The notes below the pieces were generated by a model. It made no database searches. It was given only the letters and a program-made list of their open reading frames with translations, and was not told where the DNA came from. A stretch of DNA of 64,000 bases, taken from a virus. Positions 22,476 through 40,627 of this stretch are shown here, piece after piece. Every line of letters begins with the position of its first letter. Position 1 is the stretch's first letter. Made by a program: the position numbers and the translations under genes. The stretch is taken from IMG/VR virus record IMGVR_UViG_3300032046_003126, positions 23,182-87,181 of that record; one strand, 5' to 3'.

Positions 22476-23266
22476 CTATATTAAAAATAAAAAAAGGTAA
22501 CAATGGTGGAAAAATTTTTTTATTAACTTGTAATAATTGTTTAAAACATTTTGAAAGAAAATATAAAAAAACAATTAACAAACAATATCATTATTGCAAT
22601 GTTTCTTGTTCAATTAAAGCCAGGCATCAAATTTTTAAACAAAACAATATTAGTTTAATTGAAAAAGCTCATAAAACATATTTAGAAATGTGTATCTCTG
22701 ATCCTACTTTAAGGAAAAAAGTAACAAAAAAAGCTTTGAAAACTGTAAATGAAAAATATAAAGTATCAAATGTTTCTTTGCTTGATGACGTAAAGAATAA
22801 AAAAATATCTTCTTATAGAAAAAACTTTGGCGTTGATCATCCGATGTATTTGGATATAATAAAATCTAAAGTATATGATACTATGAAAAAAAACGGAACT
22901 TATAAAAAAATATCAAAACCAGAAATGTTGTTTAAATTATACATTGAAGAAAATTATGGACAACATAATATTGAATGTCAAAAACGTATAAACAATTGGA
23001 ACATAGATTTTTATATTAATACTCTAAATACATACATTCAAATAGACGGTATTTATTGGCACGGCATTGGAAAATCAGACGAAGAAATTACAAACAATTT
23101 TAATAAAAGAAATAAATCTATACTAAATACAAAAAATATTGATAAAAAACAAAATTTTTGGTTTGAAAAAAATAATTTGAGATTAATTAGAATAACAGAT
23201 GTTGGGTTATTACAAAATATCAAGCAAGGGTGTTTTAACAAGATATCTAAAACTCTAGAAACGTGA
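22472..23266 (+). CDS. Free-standing Vsr/DUF559-like (PD-(D/E)xK) homing endonuclease
   Basis: N-terminal CNNC..YCNVSC zinc module, KYKV/NFGVDHP repeats, SKPE...IDFYI...IQIDGIYWHG...LIRI nuclease core. Confidence 0.75.
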   Translation: MTILKIKKGNNGGKIFLLTCNNCLKHFERKYKKTINKQYHYCNVSCSIKARHQIFKQNNISLIEKAHKTYLEMCISDPTLRKKVTKKALKTVNEKYKVSNVSLLDDVKNKKISSYRKNFGVDHPMYLDIIKSKVYDTMKKNGTYKKISKPEMLFKLYIEENYGQHNIECQKRINNWNIDFYINTLNTYIQIDGIYWHGIGKSDEEITNNFNKRNKSILNTKNIDKKQNFWFEKNNLRLIRITDVGLLQNIKQGCFNKISKTLET

Positions 23267-33730: not shown

Positions 33731-34132
33731 ATGACTGTAAAAAATTACAACAAGTATCTAGAACTTTCAAAAGTATTCAACGAAACCTTTGGAGCAAAAA
33801 ATAAAATGGATAATACCGTATTCACAGATATGGTAAGAACAAGACTTATTGATGAAACAAAAGTTAGTGTCATGTACATCACTGTTGTAAATCTTCAAAG
33901 AGAAGACCAGTGGCTCGAATTATCAAATAAATTCACCAGTGATGCCGTAGAAATAATAAGAAATTATCTTAAAAAAGCAACAGAGGAATATAAAAAAAAT
34001 ACGGATGATAAAATTAAGTTTACAATAGATTCAAAGTCTGTTAAGTTCGATGTAGAGTTTCTAAACTACAATATATTAAGGACAAACAGGAATGCATACT
34101 TCAGAGTTTATTGCGACGCCGAAATCGACTAA
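33731..34132 (+). CDS. Hypothetical protein
   Basis: 133-aa ORF in operon. Confidence 0.5.
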   Translation: MTVKNYNKYLELSKVFNETFGAKNKMDNTVFTDMVRTRLIDETKVSVMYITVVNLQREDQWLELSNKFTSDAVEIIRNYLKKATEEYKKNTDDKIKFTIDSKSVKFDVEFLNYNILRTNRNAYFRVYCDAEID

Positions 34133-34796
34133 AGAAATAATTTTATTGTCTGTTTTGAACGAATATCCTTTTAATCCTCTTGAAAAAGATAAAGAATATT
34201 TAGGATTAAATTATTGCCAAAAAACAATATTTGAATTAGATTTTAAAAAAGAAAAAATAATTTTTTTAAAAGAAAGACAAAAAGGTTGTACGGTCGCTCT
34301 GTTAGCTCATGCGGTGGAATCGTTAAAACAAAATAAAAATTATTCTATTTTGTTTTTAACAGAATCATCAATGATTGAGTTATATAAGACTTATTGTTTG
34401 TTTCTCATGGGCGACAAGAATAACACAAAACACATAAAAAATAAAATAAAAATAAATAATTCTTCTATTGAATTTAGTAGTGGAAAACATATCAATAATA
34501 ATTTCTTTCATGGCAAAACATATGATCTTGTTGTTTGGGATGAAATTCGTATAAAAGAATTTTTACTTCTTAAATCAAATTTTAATAAAAATTTCATTGG
34601 AACAAGTACCATCTTAGATAATAATATTAAAATTATCCCTGACAGATATTGTAATTTACATATTTTTAAAGATTTATGGAATATAAATGAACCAAATTTA
34701 AACGTTTTGCCTGTATATTTACAATTACTACCAGATCTAACACAAGAATCTGAATTCGTAGGTAAAAGTTTAATAGAAAATTATGGCAGATTCTAA
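34092..34796 (+). CDS. Degenerate terminase-ATPase-like protein
   Basis: YCQ..., IIFLKERQKGCT (cf. KSRQLGLST), NNSSIEF (cf. NGSKIK), HGKTYDLVVWDE (cf. Walker B). Confidence 0.6.
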   Translation: MHTSEFIATPKSTKEIILLSVLNEYPFNPLEKDKEYLGLNYCQKTIFELDFKKEKIIFLKERQKGCTVALLAHAVESLKQNKNYSILFLTESSMIELYKTYCLFLMGDKNNTKHIKNKIKINNSSIEFSSGKHINNNFFHGKTYDLVVWDEIRIKEFLLLKSNFNKNFIGTSTILDNNIKIIPDRYCNLHIFKDLWNINEPNLNVLPVYLQLLPDLTQESEFVGKSLIENYGRF

Positions 34797-35379
34797 TAAA
34801 AAAATTCAACGTAAACAAGATCAAATTGAAGAAATAATAAAATGCGGAAAAGAACCTTCTTATTTTATTAAAAACTATGTTAAAATACCTCATCCAATGA
34901 GAGGACTTGTTCCTTTTGAGACATTCCCATATCAGGACGATTGTTTGGAAATGTTTCAATCTCACAGACTCGTTATCACTAATAAGTCTCGTCAGTTAGG
35001 GTTATCCACAATATCTGCCGCATATGCCCTGTGGATGTCTTTGTTTTATAAAGAAAAAAACATAATAGTAATTGCAACAAAATTGGAAACAGCAAAAGAA
35101 TTTATCGTTAAAGTTAAAACAATGCTTGATTCCCTACCACCATGGTTAGTTCTACCAAAACTAACAGGAGAGTCTGTTAGATATCTTAATTTTTCTAATG
35201 GTTCTAAAATAAAAGCAATGTCTACATCAAAAGACGCAGGCCGTTCTCAGGCCGCATCCATAATTATTATAGATGAGTGTTTGGATGCTACTAGTAAGAT
35301 AACTCTACGAAATAAACTGACAGGCGAAATGAAAGAAATTTCAATTGTCGATTTGTTTAATGAAGAAATATATGAATAA
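34783..35379 (+). CDS. terL: Terminase large subunit, N-terminal fragment fused to split-intein N half
   Basis: EIIKC..P.YFIKNYVKI.HP.RG, FPYQ, KSRQLGLST (Walker A region), GRSQAASIIIIDE (Walker B), then C-initiated intein fragment and stop. Confidence 0.92.
   Translation: MADSNKKIQRKQDQIEEIIKCGKEPSYFIKNYVKIPHPMRGLVPFETFPYQDDCLEMFQSHRLVITNKSRQLGLSTISAAYALWMSLFYKEKNIIVIATKLETAKEFIVKVKTMLDSLPPWLVLPKLTGESVRYLNFSNGSKIKAMSTSKDAGRSQAASIIIIDECLDATSKITLRNKLTGEMKEISIVDLFNEEIYE
35278..35376 (+). mobile_element. Split intein N-fragment (IntN, 33 aa)
   Basis: CLDATSKITLRNKLTGEMKEISIVDLF = intein block A directly after Walker B DE; ORF stops after 33 aa. Confidence 0.88.
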
Positions 35380-35464
35380 AAAAATATATGTCTGTATGTT
35401 CTTTATAAGAAATTTTGTTATGTTAACATTCTCACATGAATATTAAAATTATAGATGGAGAATT

Positions 35465-37429
35465 ATGACCAAACAAAGAGAAATTTTATCAAACGGAATT
35501 CTTTTTAATTGTGAGTTATGTGATAAAAAAGATATGAAATCAACAGGGTTTTCGAATCATGTTAATAGTATGCATGTGAAAAAAGAAAATATTTCTTCTT
35601 TAGAAGAATATTATAAGTTATATATAAATTTAAAATGGGGCAATTCAAATAATTTATGTAAATTTTGTAATAAAGAAACAAAGTTTATGTCAATTTTCGA
35701 AGGATACTCAGAGTTTTGCTCGCATCAGTGTTCGGTGTCTACTACTGAACATAAAGAATTAATTAAAGTAAATTATAAAATTTCTATGTTGGAAAAATAC
35801 GGAGTAGAACATTCAAGTAAACTTTCTGGATTTGGTGATAAGGTTAAAGCTACTAAGCTAAAAAAACATGGGGATGAAAATTTTAACAATATTGAAAAAG
35901 CAAAATTAACTAATCTGGGTCGCTATGGTGTAGAAAATTATGCTAAATCTAATGAATATGTTGAAAAAACAAAAGCAACATCACTGGAAAAATATGGTGT
36001 AGAACACTTTACACAAAACGAAGAAGTTAAAAACAAAACAAAACTAACTAATTTAGATCGTTATGGTTTTGAAAATCCAATGAAAAACGTTGAAATATAT
36101 AATAAATCAAAAGAAACTAATTTAAAAAGATATGGCGTAAAACATGCTACTCAATATGAATTTTTTAGAAATAAAACAAAAAAAACTTTAATGGAAAAAT
36201 ATGGAGTTGACAGTCCTTTAAAATTATTTCATACAAGATTAAAATCAAAAACATCTATAAGAAAAAAGTTTGAAGATAATTTTAATTTTTTAGAACAAAC
36301 TAAATTAAAACTATTAGATTCAAATGAATTAAAATTTAAATGTCTTGTTTGTAACAATGATTTTATTTTTGAACCCGAAGGGGAATATAAATATTTATCT
36401 TCTAATTCTTCTACACCTTCAAGGTTTCCTCATTGTAAAATATGCAATCCCGTTGGAGCACGAGATGGTTCATCAATTCAAAAAGAAATTTATTCTTATA
36501 TTTGTTCTTTTTTTGATAAAGAGAAAATTAAAATAAACGATAAAAGTATATTAAAAAACATAAACAAACAAGTTGATATTTATATAGAAAATAAAAATAT
36601 TTCTTTTGAAATAAATGGTTTATATTGGCATTCTGAGATTGGCGGCAACAAAGGAAAAACATATCATGTTAATAAAACAAATTTATCAGAAGCAAAAAAT
36701 ATTAAATTAATTCATATTTTTGAAGATGAAATTAATGATAAAAATAAAATAATTAAATCAAAATTAGATTATCTATTAAATAATACAAAAAATTCTAAAT
36801 CAATAGGCGCAAGAAAATGTGTTATTAAAAAAACAAATAAAAAAGAATACTTTGATTTTTATGAAAACAATCACTTACAAGGGAAAGTTATAGGAGGAAA
36901 TATTTCATATGGTGCATTTTATAATAATGAACTTGTTGCCTGTATGACGTTTGGCCAAGAAAGAATTTCTTTAGGCAGCAAGAATCATACAAACAAAAAC
37001 GAGTTTGAGTTGCTTAGATTTTGTACAAAAATAGGATATGTAATTCCTGGTGTAGCGAGCAGGTTATTTAGTCGTTTTATAAAAGAAAATAATCCCAATA
37101 AAATCATATCTTATGCTGATAGAAGATGGAGTAGTTCTATTAATAAAGACACCGTTTATCAAAAACTTGGTTTTACAGAGGTTCATAAATCTGAACCAAA
37201 TTACTTTTATTTGCTTAAAGAAGATAATTATAGGAAAAGACATAACAGATATAAATTTAGAAAATCAGAACTAAATAGGTTATTATCTATATACGACCCA
37301 GCGTTATCAGAGTGGGAAAATATGAAAAATAATGGACACGATAGAATCTGGGATTGTGGGACAATAAAATATGAGTGGAAAAACAAAACCGTACAAGAAA
37401 ATATCGAATTGGGAAGTTCTAACTCCTAA
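35465..37429 (+). CDS. Homing endonuclease between the split-intein halves (Vsr-like nuclease plus Hef/GNAT-like C-terminal domain)
   Basis: C2H2 and CxxC zinc modules, seven (K/R)(Y/H)G repeats, VDIYI...FEINGLYWHSE...LIHIFEDE, then ARKC...NHLQG...ELLRFC...ASRL...SYADRRWS...RIWDCG. Confidence 0.8.
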   Translation: MTKQREILSNGILFNCELCDKKDMKSTGFSNHVNSMHVKKENISSLEEYYKLYINLKWGNSNNLCKFCNKETKFMSIFEGYSEFCSHQCSVSTTEHKELIKVNYKISMLEKYGVEHSSKLSGFGDKVKATKLKKHGDENFNNIEKAKLTNLGRYGVENYAKSNEYVEKTKATSLEKYGVEHFTQNEEVKNKTKLTNLDRYGFENPMKNVEIYNKSKETNLKRYGVKHATQYEFFRNKTKKTLMEKYGVDSPLKLFHTRLKSKTSIRKKFEDNFNFLEQTKLKLLDSNELKFKCLVCNNDFIFEPEGEYKYLSSNSSTPSRFPHCKICNPVGARDGSSIQKEIYSYICSFFDKEKIKINDKSILKNINKQVDIYIENKNISFEINGLYWHSEIGGNKGKTYHVNKTNLSEAKNIKLIHIFEDEINDKNKIIKSKLDYLLNNTKNSKSIGARKCVIKKTNKKEYFDFYENNHLQGKVIGGNISYGAFYNNELVACMTFGQERISLGSKNHTNKNEFELLRFCTKIGYVIPGVASRLFSRFIKENNPNKIISYADRRWSSSINKDTVYQKLGFTEVHKSEPNYFYLLKEDNYRKRHNRYKFRKSELNRLLSIYDPALSEWENMKNNGHDRIWDCGTIKYEWKNKTVQENIELGSSNS

Positions 37430-37748
37430 AGGCTTTAAGTCATTTTCGGGTATTAAAAAAGTAAACAAAGAATATTCTTTAAAATTCACAACAGAATTTG
37501 ACAAAGAAATAACCTGTTCTGGTGGTCATCAACTTTATGTAAAAAGAGAACTAGAAGGTCAAGAGTCTGAGGAAATGTTTTGTTTTGCTGATATGATTGA
37601 GCCTTATACAGATAAAATAAAAAACAAAGTTGGAGAATATGAAACTGTTATTGAGATAGAAAAAACAGAAAAAGAAATTGATTTATTTGATCTTGTTGAT
37701 GTAGAAGATGGATATGAGTATTACGCCAATGATTTATTAAGTCATAAT
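37371..37748 (+). mobile_element. Split intein C-fragment (IntC, 126 aa)
   Basis: EVLTPKGFKSFSGI, block B ITCSGGH, block F/G DLFDLVDVEDGYEYYANDLLSHN followed by Cys+1. Confidence 0.88.
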
Positions 37749-39719
37749 TGTGCTCACATTGAGAACTTTTCTGAGTTGTGGACCGGCCTTCAGCCCACAA
37801 TATCTTGTGTGACTGGTGATACATTAATATTAACAGATAATGGATTTGAAAAAATAGAAGATTTTCATAAAACACATAATGTTGGAGATTATTTTAAACT
37901 AGAAATACCAATTTATGGAAAAAATGGAATGGAAAAAACGTCTCACGGATATGTTTCACCTGAATCAGATACCATTATTATAAGAACCAAACATGGACAT
38001 GAAATAGAATGTACTCTAAAACATCCATTGTTTGTGTATCAAAATGGTAAAAATGATGGAGTGATGATCGAATCTCGAAATATTACGATAGGTAATAAGT
38101 TGAGAATTCAAACAGGAATGAAGTGTTATGGAACCAATACTAAAAACATAACATTATTGGAGGCCAAAAACACAGCATTAAAATATTCCAAGTCATTAAT
38201 TTTTGATGAAAATTTGGATTTAGATAGTGATATCTTGACCGCAAATGAAATATTTGTAAAAAATTATTTAAAAGAACTTATCAAAATCTGTTGTGTGGAA
38301 ACAATAGAAACCATAAATAAAAAAATATTTAAAATAGAAATTAAAAGTAAAGGTTTTATAAAAAAACTTAATTTACTTTTTCATAACGATGGATATAAAT
38401 CATATATTTTAAAAGAAAAAGAAAAAATCTTTCTTTGTGTTCCATTTGAAGAAACGAAAGATAATTTTTATTGGGATGAAATTGTTTCTATTGATAAATC
38501 TAAAAATAAAACATATGATTTTACAGTTCCAAAAACACATACTTTTTTACAAAACGGAATTTTAGGAAGCAACACAGGAGGCTCTGCTATTTTAATTTCT
38601 ACTCCTTTGGGAATTGGAAATCAATTCCATAGCATATGGGCAAAAGCAACAGATAAAAACTTTGACCCGGCCAATATTAAAACAAACGAAGAGGGTTCAA
38701 ATAAGTTTTATGCGATAGAATTACCATGGACAGTACATCCCGAAAGAGATCAAGAATGGTATGAATCGCAGTGTTCCGAGTTGGGAAATGATCCTCGTCG
38801 TATTTCCCAGGAACTTTTATGTGCTTTTAATTCATCTGGTAACAATTTCATTGACAGTAAAATATTAGAATATTTAAAAACACAACTTAAAACTCCAATT
38901 GCGAGATATGGCAATGGCAACGATATGAATATATGGGAATATGCAAAACCAGGCCATAAATATATAATCTCAGCTGACGTAGCTCGTGGAGATTCGGAAG
39001 ATTTTTCAACAGCTTGGATTATAGATGCAGACACTAATATCTGTGTAGCTGATTTTAAAAGCAAAATACCTCCTGATAGATTTGCAGAATTTTTAGTTGA
39101 TATTGGAGAAAAATACAACAAAGCATTTATTGTCAACGAGATTAATAGTGTCGGGGTAGCTACTTCTTTTGCGTTGAAGACATTAAAATATCAAAATTTA
39201 TATTTTGAAAAACTCTTTAATGGTTCAATTGAAAACAACTATACACAAGATATGATAGGAGACTTAATCCCAGGATTTAATACTAATGTTAAATCCAGAG
39301 TAGAAATAATGACAAAATTTGAGGCTGCAATAAGAAATAAAGAAATACAAGTATATTCTGATAGGCTTATTAAAGAACTCGAAACATTTATTTGGGATGG
39401 GAAAAAAGCAAAGGCTTTAAAAGGCTACAATGACGACTTAATAATGGCGTTAGCAATAGGAGTTAACTTTATCAATTGGGGGGCCGCTAGAAGCACGTAT
39501 GACGATGGTGCAAGTATAATGGCTATGATTCAAGGAATGTCAAAGAACTCTAGAACTCTAGAACAATTAACCAAACAACAATCAGAGCCCAATACAGTAG
39601 ATTGGGGTAATATTGGCTTTGATCTGCCATCCAAGGGAAGTATTTATTCTAATTCTAATACTAAAAATAATATTTTTGTAGGAGGAACAAGAATTCCAAG
39701 TTGGATTAAACAAAGTTAA
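37371..39719 (+). CDS. terL: Terminase large subunit, C-terminal fragment (IntC + 19-aa extein + second intein + motif III and nuclease domain)
   Basis: After removing inteins: CAHIENFSELWTGLQPTIS-TGGSAILISTPLG, LPWTVHPERD, QELLCAF, YIISADVARG...DFS, VNEINSVG, GYNDDLIMALAI. Confidence 0.92.
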   Translation: MSGKTKPYKKISNWEVLTPKGFKSFSGIKKVNKEYSLKFTTEFDKEITCSGGHQLYVKRELEGQESEEMFCFADMIEPYTDKIKNKVGEYETVIEIEKTEKEIDLFDLVDVEDGYEYYANDLLSHNCAHIENFSELWTGLQPTISCVTGDTLILTDNGFEKIEDFHKTHNVGDYFKLEIPIYGKNGMEKTSHGYVSPESDTIIIRTKHGHEIECTLKHPLFVYQNGKNDGVMIESRNITIGNKLRIQTGMKCYGTNTKNITLLEAKNTALKYSKSLIFDENLDLDSDILTANEIFVKNYLKELIKICCVETIETINKKIFKIEIKSKGFIKKLNLLFHNDGYKSYILKEKEKIFLCVPFEETKDNFYWDEIVSIDKSKNKTYDFTVPKTHTFLQNGILGSNTGGSAILISTPLGIGNQFHSIWAKATDKNFDPANIKTNEEGSNKFYAIELPWTVHPERDQEWYESQCSELGNDPRRISQELLCAFNSSGNNFIDSKILEYLKTQLKTPIARYGNGNDMNIWEYAKPGHKYIISADVARGDSEDFSTAWIIDADTNICVADFKSKIPPDRFAEFLVDIGEKYNKAFIVNEINSVGVATSFALKTLKYQNLYFEKLFNGSIENNYTQDMIGDLIPGFNTNVKSRVEIMTKFEAAIRNKEIQVYSDRLIKELETFIWDGKKAKALKGYNDDLIMALAIGVNFINWGAARSTYDDGASIMAMIQGMSKNSRTLEQLTKQQSEPNTVDWGNIGFDLPSKGSIYSNSNTKNNIFVGGTRIPSWIKQS
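37806..38573 (+). mobile_element. Contiguous intein (256 aa) with eroded LAGLIDADG region
   Basis: CVTGDTLILTDNG (block A), IECTLKHPLF (block B), WDEIVSI...TYDFTVPKTHTFLQNGILGSN|T (blocks F/G). Confidence 0.9.
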
Positions 39720-39749
39720 AAACAAACATGGTCTTGTAAAAGATTTTCG

Positions 39750-39778
39750 TTTACAACCTTGTGTTGGCGTGTTATACT
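39750..39778 (+). promoter_or_regulatory. Sigma70-like promoter with extended -10
   Basis: TTTACA-17 nt-TATACT with TG one base before the -10; ATG 7 nt downstream. Confidence 0.6.
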
Positions 39779-39784
39779 TTGGAT

Positions 39785-40627
39785 ATGAAAAATCCAGTCA
39801 TTTTAATGAGAGCTTCACTCGCAGAAGAAAAAGAATTACTCATAGCAAAAAAATATTTTGATGTGTATGAAAATCGATGTTCAATACCAGAAAATTCTCT
39901 AGTAATTCCTAGATTTTCATATCTTCCATTTCCAAAAGAATTTGAAGAAGACATGAAATATAAAAATTGTGATGTTATAAACACATACAGACAACATCGT
40001 TATATAGCAGATTTATCTAACTGGTATCAAGACCTTGAAGACATAACTCCAAAAACATGGTTTAGATTTGAAGATGTGCCCAAACACTGTGGGCCTGTTG
40101 TTTTAAAGGGAGAAACAAATAGTAAAAAGTATTTTTGGCATACTCACATGTATGCTGAGAATTGGGATGCTGCAAATAAAGTATTTAGTAATTTAATGAT
40201 GGATAGTTTAATTGGAGCACAGAATATCTACATTAGAGAGTATGTGCCACTAAAAACATTTGATTATGATGTGACCGGCATTCCTATCACAGAAGAATAT
40301 AGATTTTTCATATTAGATGGAAAAGTTGTAACGTCAGGATTTTATTGGTCTTCACATTGTGAATTATTAGAAAATAAGGAACTGAATATAAATCCTGATA
40401 ATGTTCCGAAAGAATTCATTCGGGATATTATCGACAGAGTTGGAAAAAATTCAAGATTTTTCGTTGTTGATGTAGCCAGAGCACAAACTCCTTATAATCC
40501 TTTATATAATCAACATGGTTTAGGAGAATGGATTGTTGTGGAGTTAAACGACGGCATGATGTCAGGAATATCAGAAAATGATCCAAATGTGTTGTATTCA
40601 AACATGAAAGATGTTTTAACAAAATGA
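39785..40627 (+). CDS. ATP-grasp domain protein (R2K/DUF4343-like)
   Basis: ITPKTW, VVLKGETNSKK, IREYV, EEYRFFILDG, VVDVAR, IVVELNDGMMSG. Confidence 0.8.
   Translation: MKNPVILMRASLAEEKELLIAKKYFDVYENRCSIPENSLVIPRFSYLPFPKEFEEDMKYKNCDVINTYRQHRYIADLSNWYQDLEDITPKTWFRFEDVPKHCGPVVLKGETNSKKYFWHTHMYAENWDAANKVFSNLMMDSLIGAQNIYIREYVPLKTFDYDVTGIPITEEYRFFILDGKVVTSGFYWSSHCELLENKELNINPDNVPKEFIRDIIDRVGKNSRFFVVDVARAQTPYNPLYNQHGLGEWIVVELNDGMMSGISENDPNVLYSNMKDVLTK

What the first reader, a model, noticed from the sequence alone, without database searches (positions are those of the whole stretch)
34783..39719. Fractured terminase gene: atypically split intein, intervening endonuclease and a second intein 19 residues downstream
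Seen: TerL-N ends ...IIIIDE|CLDATSKITL... and stops after a 33-aa IntN. A 654-aa endonuclease follows. The next ORF begins with a 126-aa IntC ending SHN|C, then a 19-aa micro-extein (CAHIENFSELWTGLQPTIS), then a 256-aa contiguous intein ending GSN|T. Removing the inteins gives a seamless T4 gp17-type Walker B to motif III (IIIIDECAHIENFSELWTGLQPTISTGGSAILISTPLG) in a 565-aa protein (165+19+381). Known: fractured phage genes with split inteins and Vsr-like endonucleases, and short-IntN TerL inteins (AceL-TerL, GOS-TerL), are described. Inference: this packaging ATPase needs one trans- and one cis-splicing event on adjacent sites. That is a possible timing switch for DNA packaging and a new candidate short-IntN protein-ligation tool. 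IntN is net acidic and the IntC N-terminus is Lys-rich, consistent with electrostatic pairing.
Basis: partly seen in the sequence, partly recalled or inferred. Interest (0 to 1): 0.88.

Follow-up and report, generated by a model that had tools for sequence, protein, structure and literature searches.

The report
Terminase gene split by two inteins
A large environmental phage encodes its DNA-packaging motor in two genes that must be joined by a split intein and then freed of a second intein 19 residues away, but each element is of a known kind and the same layout recurs in many other phages, so it is not a special switch.

Summary
ORF1 (34783-35379) is 165 aa of TerL plus a 33-aa IntN. ORF2 (35465-37429) is a 654-aa free-standing homing endonuclease. 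ORF3 (37371-39719) is a 126-aa IntC, a 19-aa micro-extein, a 256-aa intein and 381 aa of TerL. The deduced 565-aa product aligns without junction gaps to intein-free TerL.

The split intein belongs to the known AceL-TerL/GOS-TerL/Cat family of atypically split inteins. The endonuclease is of the EDxHD/Vsr-like type, as in published "fractured genes". Intein 2 is a mini-intein with a decayed LAGLIDADG domain; a 93%-identical relative has the exact empty site.

The layout is not unique. About 20 protein clusters and the cultured Salicola phage SCTP-2 carry IntC, a micro-extein and a second intein. Relatives carry up to four intein elements. On a TerL tree the two inteins are gained and lost independently (at least 14 and 15 changes, no association).

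The need for one trans- and one cis-splicing event is well supported by homology. The "timing switch" has no support. Verdict: a new member of known kinds, of moderate interest. No splicing was tested, and RNA and read-level checks were unavailable.

The parts
34783..35277 (+). TerL N-extein, 165 aa: ATPase N-terminal part with a deviant Walker A (KSRQLGLST) and Walker B plus catalytic Glu (IIIIDE)
   Evidence: Pfam Terminase_6N 5e-9; phrog_5989 terminase large subunit 4.7e-45; boundary by script; 56% identity to the unsplit TerL P0040
35278..35379 (+). IntN of the atypically split intein: 33 aa beginning with Cys1 (CLDATSKITLRNK...), then a stop codon
   Evidence: The phrog_5989 profile runs to residue 194, i.e. 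through IntN. 34 related N-fragments end in DE|C plus 30-60 aa. IntN aligns to the N-terminal part of the contiguous intein of P0040
35380..35464 (+). 85-nt AT-rich spacer (GC 0.20) with a GGAG Shine-Dalgarno 5 nt before the endonuclease ATG
   Evidence: Sequence read directly; GC content
35465..37429 (+). Free-standing homing endonuclease, 654 aa. It has N-terminal Cys clusters, seven KYG helical repeats (DUF7487, about 35744-36283), an EDxHD/Vsr-like nuclease (about 36473-36784) and a Mom-like GNAT-fold C-terminal domain (about 36797-37384)
   Evidence: phrog_3339 homing endonuclease 1.7e-118; Pfam DUF7487 3e-26. The family profile hits PDB 3R3P (I-Bth0305I nuclease domain) at E 2.5e-6, with invariant D371, E382, H389. 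AF2 model pLDDT 83.9. Foldseek top hit 8BV8 phage Mu Mom, E 5e-7. Pfam Mom hits the homolog P0164
37371..37748 (+). IntC of the split intein, 126 aa, ending SHN, with block B (SGGH) and blocks F and G. Its start codon lies inside the endonuclease's last conserved codons
   Evidence: PDB 6DSL_B CatC E 2.4e-8. Pfam Intein_splicing profile positions 54-155 only, E 2.8e-4. The AF2 model's IntC matches 6DSL_B at TM 0.76, 33% identity. It aligns to residues 214-317 of the contiguous intein of P0040
37749..37805 (+). 19-aa micro-extein (CAHIENFSELWTGLQPTIS), the TerL segment between Walker B and the coupling motif. GC 0.47 against 0.25-0.29 in the flanking inteins
   Evidence: It is 19/19 identical in P0005 and aligns gap-free to intein-free P0060. 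pLDDT is below 50 in the unspliced model
37806..38573 (+). Intein 2: a contiguous class-1 mini-intein of 256 aa with Cys1, TLKH block B, C-terminal GSN and +1 Thr, and a decayed LAGLIDADG remnant (helical insert about 262-339 of ORF3)
   Evidence: Pfam Intein_splicing 44.8 bits against a cut-off of 35.8; TIGR01445 and TIGR01443. Alignment to 436-447-aa alleles shows the first LAGLIDADG block deleted and the second replaced. Foldseek 7QSU HE-associated intein 2.4e-14. Exact empty site in P0005
38574..39719 (+). TerL C-extein, 381 aa plus stop: the rest of the ATPase (coupling motif ILISTP) and the RNase H-like nuclease domain
   Evidence: phrog_2 terminase large subunit 1.5e-17. Foldseek hits T4 gp17 3CPE at 9e-14 and TerL nuclease domains at TM 0.77-0.80. 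93% identity to P0005

Best explanation
The essential large terminase gene of a large environmental (sediment) phage has been colonised by two independent selfish elements at neighbouring sites in the ATPase centre. Element 1 (35278-37748) is a mini-intein inserted right after the Walker B catalytic Glu. A free-standing EDxHD/Vsr-like homing endonuclease gene has broken it in an N-terminal loop, leaving a 33-aa IntN on the upstream ORF and a 126-aa IntC on the downstream ORF. Element 2 (37806-38573) is a contiguous mini-intein 19 residues downstream whose LAGLIDADG endonuclease has decayed. Inferred mechanism: ORF1 and ORF3 are translated separately. IntN docks on IntC to complete a HINT fold and trans-splices at IDE|CAH. 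Intein 2 excises itself in cis at TIS|TGG. Together these yield a 565-aa T4-type TerL. The endonuclease presumably cuts intein-less terL alleles during co-infection and spreads the cassette. The pairing of the two inteins is a by-product of an intein hot spot, not a co-adapted device. Shown here: the anatomy, the homologies, the empty-site and unsplit alleles, and the independent distribution. Inferred: the splicing, the endonuclease activity and its target.
For: The anatomy and boundaries are verified. The spliced product is colinear with intein-free TerL, with no junction gaps. IntC resembles the characterised Cat/AceL-TerL family by sequence (6DSL_B, E 2.4e-8) and by fold (TM 0.76). A natural unsplit allele, P0040, carries a contiguous intein of about 157 aa at the same IDE|C site. 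ORF1's IntN aligns to its N-terminal end and ORF3's IntC to its C-terminal end, with a linker of about 27 aa where the window has the endonuclease gene. Cultured, viable phages have the same IDE|C split: Yersinia TG1 with an endonuclease gene between the halves, and Campylobacter PC5 with the halves about 26 kb apart on opposite strands. That arrangement rules out cis RNA splicing there. For intein 2, the curated HMMs are passed, P0005 (93% identical C-extein) has the exact empty site, and the HE domain is decayed relative to the 436-447-aa alleles. The endonuclease family profile hits the I-Bth0305I nuclease at E 2.5e-6 (PMC3239194), and the arrangement matches published fractured genes (PMC2677866). 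Independence: roughly 32 clusters have neither intein, 10 are split only, 25 have the contiguous intein only and 21 have both. On the tree there are at least 14 and 15 changes with no association. Relatives carry three (P0006) or four (P0364) intein elements, with micro-exteins of 19 and 9 aa. Only one Terminase_6N locus is present in the record. No Rfam intron was found. Inteins and HE are more AT-rich (GC 0.25-0.29) than the exteins (0.33-0.34, micro-extein 0.47).
Against: No splicing, cleavage or expression was observed. Intein 2 has Ser, not the usual His, as penultimate residue, although this is invariant in all alleles at this site, including those of unsplit TerLs and a cultured phage. 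The record is only about 19% of the estimated genome, so an intact second terL elsewhere is not excluded. Pfam's intein model matches IntC only below its cut-off, and IntN alone finds no PDB match. The architecture census rests on regular expressions and left 34 of 121 clusters unclassified. The tree is FastTree, with some long branches.
Confidence: 0.85

Rival explanations
1. The two adjacent inteins form a co-adapted regulatory device. Obligatorily ordered or conditional trans- and cis-splicing would delay or gate activation of the packaging ATPase until late infection.
For: Both inteins sit within the catalytic centre (Walker B Glu and 10 residues before the coupling motif), so unspliced forms must be inactive. 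The 19-aa spacing makes steric interplay between the two HINT domains plausible; the micro-extein is unstructured in the model. The layout recurs in about 20 clusters and in jumbo phages.
Against: Presence of the split intein and of intein 2 vary independently on the TerL tree (at least 14 and 15 changes; independent-pairs test p about 1). The nearest relative, P0005 (93% identical), lacks intein 2 altogether. Many close TerLs have no intein. Insertion at catalytic motifs is the general habit of inteins (PMC4760082, PMC5050341). Intein 2 shows endonuclease decay typical of a selfish element in decline.
Confidence: 0.06
2. The interruption 35380-37370 is removed at the RNA level as a group I or II intron carrying the endonuclease ORF, rejoining the reading frames. 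No protein trans-splicing would then be needed.
For: EDxHD endonucleases also occur in group I introns (PMC2677866, PMC3239194). No RNA data could be examined here.
Against: No Rfam intron or other RNA family matches 34000-40500 at E up to 1. The sequences flanking the gap encode conserved intein blocks at the protein level: Cys1 and block A upstream, and blocks B, F and G downstream. They match a structurally solved split intein and a contiguous intein allele. Removing 35380-37370 would still leave an intein to splice. In related cultured phages the halves are tens to hundreds of kb apart or on opposite strands.
Confidence: 0.01
3. The fractured terL is a decaying, non-functional copy, and packaging relies on another terminase encoded elsewhere in the unsampled genome or on the TerL-ATPase-like ORF just upstream.
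For: The record covers only about 19% of the estimated genome. A 234-aa TerL-ATPase-like ORF lies immediately upstream.
Against: All frames are open and all catalytic residues of TerL and of both inteins are intact. Exteins are 93-100% identical to P0005 and IntC 92%. The same organisation is found in viable cultured phages. The upstream ORF lacks a nuclease domain and shows no significant sequence similarity to TerL.
Confidence: 0.05

Closest known systems
AceL-TerL, GOS-TerL and the consensus Cat intein (atypically split TerL inteins; PDB 6DSL; reviewed in PMC11766414)
   Same: The host gene is TerL. IntN is short and IntC long: 33/126 aa here, against 25/104, 37/115 and 30/104. It uses Cys1 and Cys+1. 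IntC is homologous by sequence (E 2.4e-8) and by modelled fold (TM 0.76, 33% identity).
   Different: IntC is 11-22 aa longer, through an insertion between block B and block F. Trans-splicing is untested. Here IntC is followed after 19 residues by a second intein. I did not verify that the insertion site is identical to that of AceL-TerL or GOS-TerL.
Fractured genes (Dassa et al. 2009, PMC2677866)
   Same: One gene is split into two adjacent same-strand ORFs that carry the halves of a split intein. A free-standing Vsr-like endonuclease gene lies between them and overlaps the downstream ORF. The setting is a phage, and terminase is among the listed hosts.
   Different: The endonuclease is much larger, with seven DUF7487 repeats and a Mom-like GNAT domain. 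A further contiguous intein lies 57 bp downstream of the cassette.
I-Bth0305I, prototype of the EDxHD homing endonucleases (PDB 3R3P, PMC3239194)
   Same: It has a Vsr-like nuclease core with conserved Asp, Glu and His (D371, E382, H389 here). DNA-binding modules lie N-terminal to the nuclease.
   Different: I-Bth0305I is intron-encoded, is about 266 aa and has two NUMOD motifs. ORF2 is free-standing, is 654 aa, has KYG/DUF7487 repeats instead of recognisable NUMODs and carries an extra C-terminal Mom-like domain.
Salicola phage SCTP-2 terminase (MF360958, gp224 and two unannotated partners)
   Same: The C-terminal fragment has the same order of parts: IntC, a micro-extein (24 aa), a mini-intein of about 225 aa ending GSN|TGG, then the C-extein. 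The intein at site 2 is an allele of the window's (37% identity).
   Different: That TerL is in three genes scattered over 440 kb. It has an additional P-loop split intein, a split site just before the Walker B Asp-Glu rather than after it, and no endonuclease gene between the pieces.
Multi-intein genes that combine split and contiguous inteins, e.g. Trichodesmium erythraeum dnaE (Liu and Yang 2003, cited in PMC2874743; only the title was seen)
   Same: One essential gene carries both a split intein and contiguous inteins.
   Different: The host protein and intein families differ, and the split is canonical (long IntN). I did not check the spacing there.

Membership tests
Atypically split TerL inteins (AceL-TerL/GOS-TerL/Cat) | Short IntN (about 25-37 aa) on the N-fragment and long IntC (over 100 aa) on the C-fragment of TerL | tested here: met
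   IntN is 33 aa and IntC 126 aa. The known values come from PMC11766414
Atypically split TerL inteins (AceL-TerL/GOS-TerL/Cat) | IntC homologous to the family in sequence and fold | tested here: met
   phmmer hit to 6DSL_B at E 2.4e-8 over residues 11-128. Foldseek of the AF2 model against 6DSL_B: E 1.6e-7, TM 0.76, 33% identity
Atypically split TerL inteins (AceL-TerL/GOS-TerL/Cat) | IntN plus IntC together make one complete HINT domain with Cys1, block B (S/T-x-x-H), terminal His-Asn and a +1 nucleophile | tested here: met
   The motifs are read from the sequence. The two pieces map to the ends of one contiguous intein in P0040. Pfam's intein profile matches IntC only from position 54 on. 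A co-fold could not be run
Atypically split TerL inteins (AceL-TerL/GOS-TerL/Cat) | Protein trans-splicing activity | not testable with these tools
   This needs co-expression and mass spectrometry
Fractured gene (Dassa 2009) | Two adjacent ORFs encode consecutive parts of one protein, each ending or starting with a split-intein half, with a free-standing endonuclease gene between them on the same strand | tested here: met
EDxHD/Vsr-like homing endonucleases | Vsr-like nuclease core with the conserved acidic and His catalytic residues | tested here: met
   A profile of 30 homologs hits 3R3P_A at E 2.5e-6. D371, E382, G385 and H389 are invariant
EDxHD/Vsr-like homing endonucleases | N-terminal NUMOD-type DNA-binding motifs | tested here: inconclusive
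   The N-terminal half is seven KYG helical repeats (Pfam DUF7487). No NUMOD family was reported
EDxHD/Vsr-like homing endonucleases | Site-specific cleavage of the intein-less allele | not testable with these tools
   This needs an in vitro cleavage assay
Contiguous class-1 intein (intein 2) | HINT splicing domain passing curated thresholds, with Cys1, block B TxxH, terminal Asn and +1 Thr | tested here: met
   Pfam PF14890 scores 44.8 bits against a cut-off of 35.8. TIGR01445 scores 44.9 and TIGR01443 28.3 bits, both above cut-off
Contiguous class-1 intein (intein 2) | Penultimate His in block G | tested here: not met
   The intein ends GSN. Every allele at this site ends GSN, including those in unsplit TerLs and in SCTP-2. 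I read this as a family trait, not a defect
Contiguous class-1 intein (intein 2) | Precise in-frame insertion, shown by an empty-site allele | tested here: met
   P0005 reads PTIS|TGGS with identical flanks
LAGLIDADG homing endonuclease domain within intein 2 | Two LAGLIDADG motifs | tested here: not met
   There is no Pfam LAGLIDADG hit. The first block is deleted and the second replaced, compared with P0007, P0009 and P0015
T4 gp17-type large terminase | Terminase_6N ATPase plus RNase H-like nuclease, colinear with intein-free homologs | tested here: met
   Foldseek hits 3CPE at 9e-14 and 5M1F at TM 0.77
Group I or II intron (rival) | Match to an intron covariance model | tested here: not met
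   Rfam finds no match at E up to 1 in 34000-40500

The most novel reading that the evidence does not exclude
With only a 19-residue micro-extein between two HINT domains, the two splicing reactions may be mechanically coupled: one must finish before the other can proceed. Phages of this clade may have co-opted that obligate order as a post-translational delay or checkpoint on activation of the packaging motor. The pair (and the pairs in SCTP-2) would also be a natural source of mutually orthogonal short-IntN inteins for three-piece ligation.
Probability: 0.07. Interest if true: 0.7.

Novelty: new member of a known kind. Interest (0 to 1): 0.4.

Why it matters
The locus adds a natural Cys1/Cys+1 split intein with a 33-aa IntN to a small family that is already used for protein labelling.

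The comparison set also shows something I did not find in the literature searched. The ATPase centre of this TerL clade is an intein hot spot. The states seen are:
- no intein;
- a split intein only;
- a contiguous intein only;
- both, and up to four intein elements in one TerL, with micro-exteins of 9-19 residues.

A cultured jumbo phage needs two trans- and one cis-splicing events to make its TerL. That offers natural material for three questions: how closely spaced inteins tolerate each other, how free-standing endonucleases break mini-inteins (unsplit and split alleles of one intein are both available), and whether split pairs are orthogonal. It does not reveal a new mechanism or a regulatory switch.

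Tried and rejected
- RNA intron reading: the Rfam evalue-mode scan of 34000-40500 found nothing.
- Read-level tests: no RNA holder was listed. So there is no evidence on expression, on RNA joints or on population variants.
Neither the viral-contig scan nor the metagenome-contig scan retrieved them. That the partners lie on the same contig is inferred only from equal contig lengths.
- IntN alone against PDB: no hit.
- Co-folding IntN with IntC was not possible, because joined sequences are not accepted. The natural unsplit allele P0040 served as the control instead.
- The upstream ORF as a TerL paralogue: BLASTP and hhalign are not significant. Only ESM Atlas features and structure support it.
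- The strict regex for the double junction in the 50%-identity representatives found only one. The count of about 20 rests on alignment spans.
- Literature searches for a described split-plus-contiguous TerL pair, or for the SCTP-2 TerL inteins, found none.
- Electrostatic IntN/IntC pairing as a family trait is rejected, because IntN charge varies from -11 to +4.

Full report
**Observation**

The three + strand ORFs exist as described: 34783-35379 (198 aa), 35465-37429 (654 aa) and 37371-39719 (782 aa). A script on the window sequence gave these parts:
- N-extein, 165 aa, ending IIIIDE
- IntN, 33 aa, starting CLDATSK
- IntC, 126 aa, ending SHN
- micro-extein, 19 aa
- intein 2, 256 aa, from CVTGD to GSN
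- C-extein, 381 aa, starting TGGS
- deduced product, 565 aa

Pfam finds Terminase_6N in ORF1 and Intein_splicing at ORF3 153-398. NCBIfam's N- and C-terminal intein models hit the two ends of intein 2. The C-extein hits terminase PHROGs. The deduced product aligns to an intein-free TerL (P0060, 579 aa) at 52% identity over 519 residues, with four gaps and none at either junction.

**The split intein**

IntC matches PDB 6DSL chain B at E 2.4e-8. That entry is the engineered consensus of atypically split TerL inteins. An AlphaFold model of ORF3 (pLDDT 79; IntC residues 8-125 confident, all beta) matches the same chain at TM 0.76 and 33% identity. Pfam's intein profile matches IntC only from profile position 54 on, as expected if IntN supplies the first strands.

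A natural control replaces the co-fold I could not run. P0040 is an unsplit TerL with a contiguous intein of about 157 aa at the same IDE|C site. ORF1 aligns to it through IntN (residues 4-186). ORF3's IntC plus micro-extein aligns to residues 214-336. A linker of about 27 aa in P0040 sits exactly where the window has a stop codon, the endonuclease gene and a start codon.

Thirty-four related N-fragments end in DE|C followed by 30-60 residues, most often 32-33.

The same split occurs in cultured phages:
- In Yersinia phage TG1 an endonuclease gene lies between the halves.
- In Campylobacter phage PC5 the halves are about 26 kb apart on opposite strands.

Together with the absence of any Rfam intron match, this leaves protein trans-splicing as the only reasonable route. 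The family (AceL-TerL 25/104, GOS-TerL 37/115, Cat 30/104) is well known (PMC11766414).

From established knowledge of T4 gp17 (Walker B Asp255, catalytic Glu256, coupling motif Thr285-287), the split lies just after the catalytic Glu.

**The endonuclease**

- ORF2 matches phrog_3339 "homing endonuclease" at 1.7e-118 and has more than 2000 relatives.
- A profile of 30 relatives hits PDB 3R3P at E 2.5e-6, and D371, E382 and H389 are invariant. 3R3P is the nuclease domain of I-Bth0305I, the prototype of the EDxHD/Vsr-like family (PMC3239194).
- The arrangement is that of published "fractured genes", which list terminase among the hosts (PMC2677866).
- The AlphaFold model (pLDDT 84) shows a helical array of seven KYG repeats (DUF7487), the nuclease, and a C-terminal domain. 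That domain's best structural match is phage Mu Mom (8BV8, E 5e-7), followed by GNAT acetyltransferases.
- Pfam's Mom family hits a homolog (P0164) above threshold, but not the window protein.
- The ORF3 start codon lies inside the endonuclease's last conserved codons (KYEW). The 16-residue tail beyond them is unconserved and of low confidence.

**Intein 2**

- Intein 2 passes the curated intein thresholds.
- P0005 is 93% identical in the C-extein, 92% in IntC and 19/19 in the micro-extein. It reads PTIS|TGGS, which is an exact empty site.
- Alleles at the same site in other TerLs are 436-447 aa long and carry LAGLIDADG_3. In the window, the first LAGLIDADG block is deleted and the second replaced.
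- The remnant still gives the model a best match to endonuclease-associated VMA inteins.
- The unusual GSN|T junction is invariant across alleles.
- Intein 2 lies about ten residues before the coupling motif, not in it.

**How common is the pair?**

Among 121 homolog clusters (90% identity), a regex census gave the following counts:

| State | Clusters |
|---|---|
| Split intein plus intein 2 | about 21 |
| Split intein only | about 10 |
| Unsplit with intein 2 | about 25 |
| Neither | about 32 |
| Unclassified | 34 |

In an exhaustive search of representatives at 50% identity, about 20 of the best 150 have one alignment running through IntC, the micro-extein and into a following intein.

Other relatives show further combinations:
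- P0006 has three intein elements.
- P0364 has four, with micro-exteins of 19 and 9 residues.
- The cultured Salicola phage SCTP-2 has its TerL in three scattered genes: a P-loop split, a Walker B split and a contiguous allele of intein 2.

I found no paper describing these architectures. Intein sites in TerL ATPase motifs are known from mycobacteriophages (PMC5050341).

**Are the two inteins coupled?**

On a FastTree of C-exteins (87 rows), the split state needs at least 14 changes and intein 2 at least 15. An independent-pairs test shows no association. The window's sister lacks intein 2, and the next relative (P0006) has a 61%-identical mini-intein. So the simplest history is vertical descent with precise loss in P0005; this is an inference.

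Inteins and the endonuclease are more AT-rich than the exteins. All of this fits independent selfish elements at a hot spot. It argues against a co-adapted timing switch, although order dependence of the two reactions remains untested.

IntN acidity (-3 here) is not conserved among the short IntNs.

**Limits**

- Nothing was shown at the protein or RNA level.
- The record is about 19% of the estimated genome and contains one Terminase_6N locus.
- DNA holders are sediment metagenomes.

**Verdict**

The splicing requirement is well supported by homology. The regulatory reading is unsupported. The locus is a new member of known kinds and sits in a clade with a striking but unexplored density of inteins.

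Noticed in passing
window 34092-34796 (+): A 234-aa ORF overlaps the terL start by 14 nt. It has no Pfam, PHROG or NCBIfam hit, and BLASTP and hhalign to TerL are not significant (E 0.17). ESM Atlas places it with clusters of about 250-aa Terminase_6N proteins (score 0.96, 186 shared features), and its Atlas model aligns to TerL ATPase domains (TM 0.62). It has Walker A-like KERQKGCT and Walker B-like LVVWDE motifs. It may be a stand-alone TerL-ATPase paralogue.
   Followed up: partly
window 36797-37384 (ORF2 residues about 445-640): The homing endonuclease carries a conserved C-terminal domain with a Mom-like GNAT fold. Foldseek's best hit is 8BV8 phage Mu Mom (E 5e-7), and Pfam Mom hits the homolog P0164. 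I did not find an EDxHD nuclease fused to a Mom-like domain described in the literature, and its role (DNA binding or DNA modification) is unknown.
   Followed up: partly
L001 4971-7055; L016 1156-2049; L017 1366-1758 (Salicola phage SCTP-2, MF360958): The TerL of this cultured 440-kb phage is encoded in three widely separated genes. The 130-aa piece ends ARQLGK|C plus a short IntN. The 297-aa piece is IntC, a middle extein and a second IntN. gp224 is IntC, 24 aa, a mini-intein and the C-extein. It therefore needs two trans- and one cis-splicing events. Only gp224 is annotated as terminase in the stretch I viewed; I did not check the annotation of the other two genes.
   Followed up: partly
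proteins P0364 (1654 aa), P0006 (1189 aa), P0414 (1008 aa), P0040 (1130 aa): Metagenomic TerL relatives carry up to four intein elements. P0364 has IntC, then 19 aa, a mini-intein, 9 aa, a LAGLIDADG intein at the coupling motif, and a fourth intein further on. P0040 has a contiguous, unsplit version of the Walker B intein followed after 19 aa by a LAGLIDADG intein.
   Followed up: partly
KX229736.1 Campylobacter phage PC5, 99414-99977 (+) and 72562-73725 (-): In Campylobacter phages the TerL N-fragment with IntN and the C-fragment with IntC lie about 26 kb apart on opposite strands.
   Followed up: no
window 37371-37429: The ORF3 ATG is embedded in the endonuclease's conserved KYEW codons. The 59-nt overlap encodes only an unconserved, low-confidence endonuclease tail. 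The Shine-Dalgarno sequence for ORF3 is weak (GGGA, 9 nt upstream), which hints at translational coupling.
   Followed up: no
window 39761-40627 (+): An ATP-grasp protein (Pfam R2K_3, 4.9e-15) is encoded directly downstream of terL.
   Followed up: no
window 22652-22879 (+): A second, weak DUF7487 match (19.4 bits, below cut-off) lies in a 266-aa ORF. It may be another KYG-repeat endonuclease relative in the same phage.
   Followed up: no
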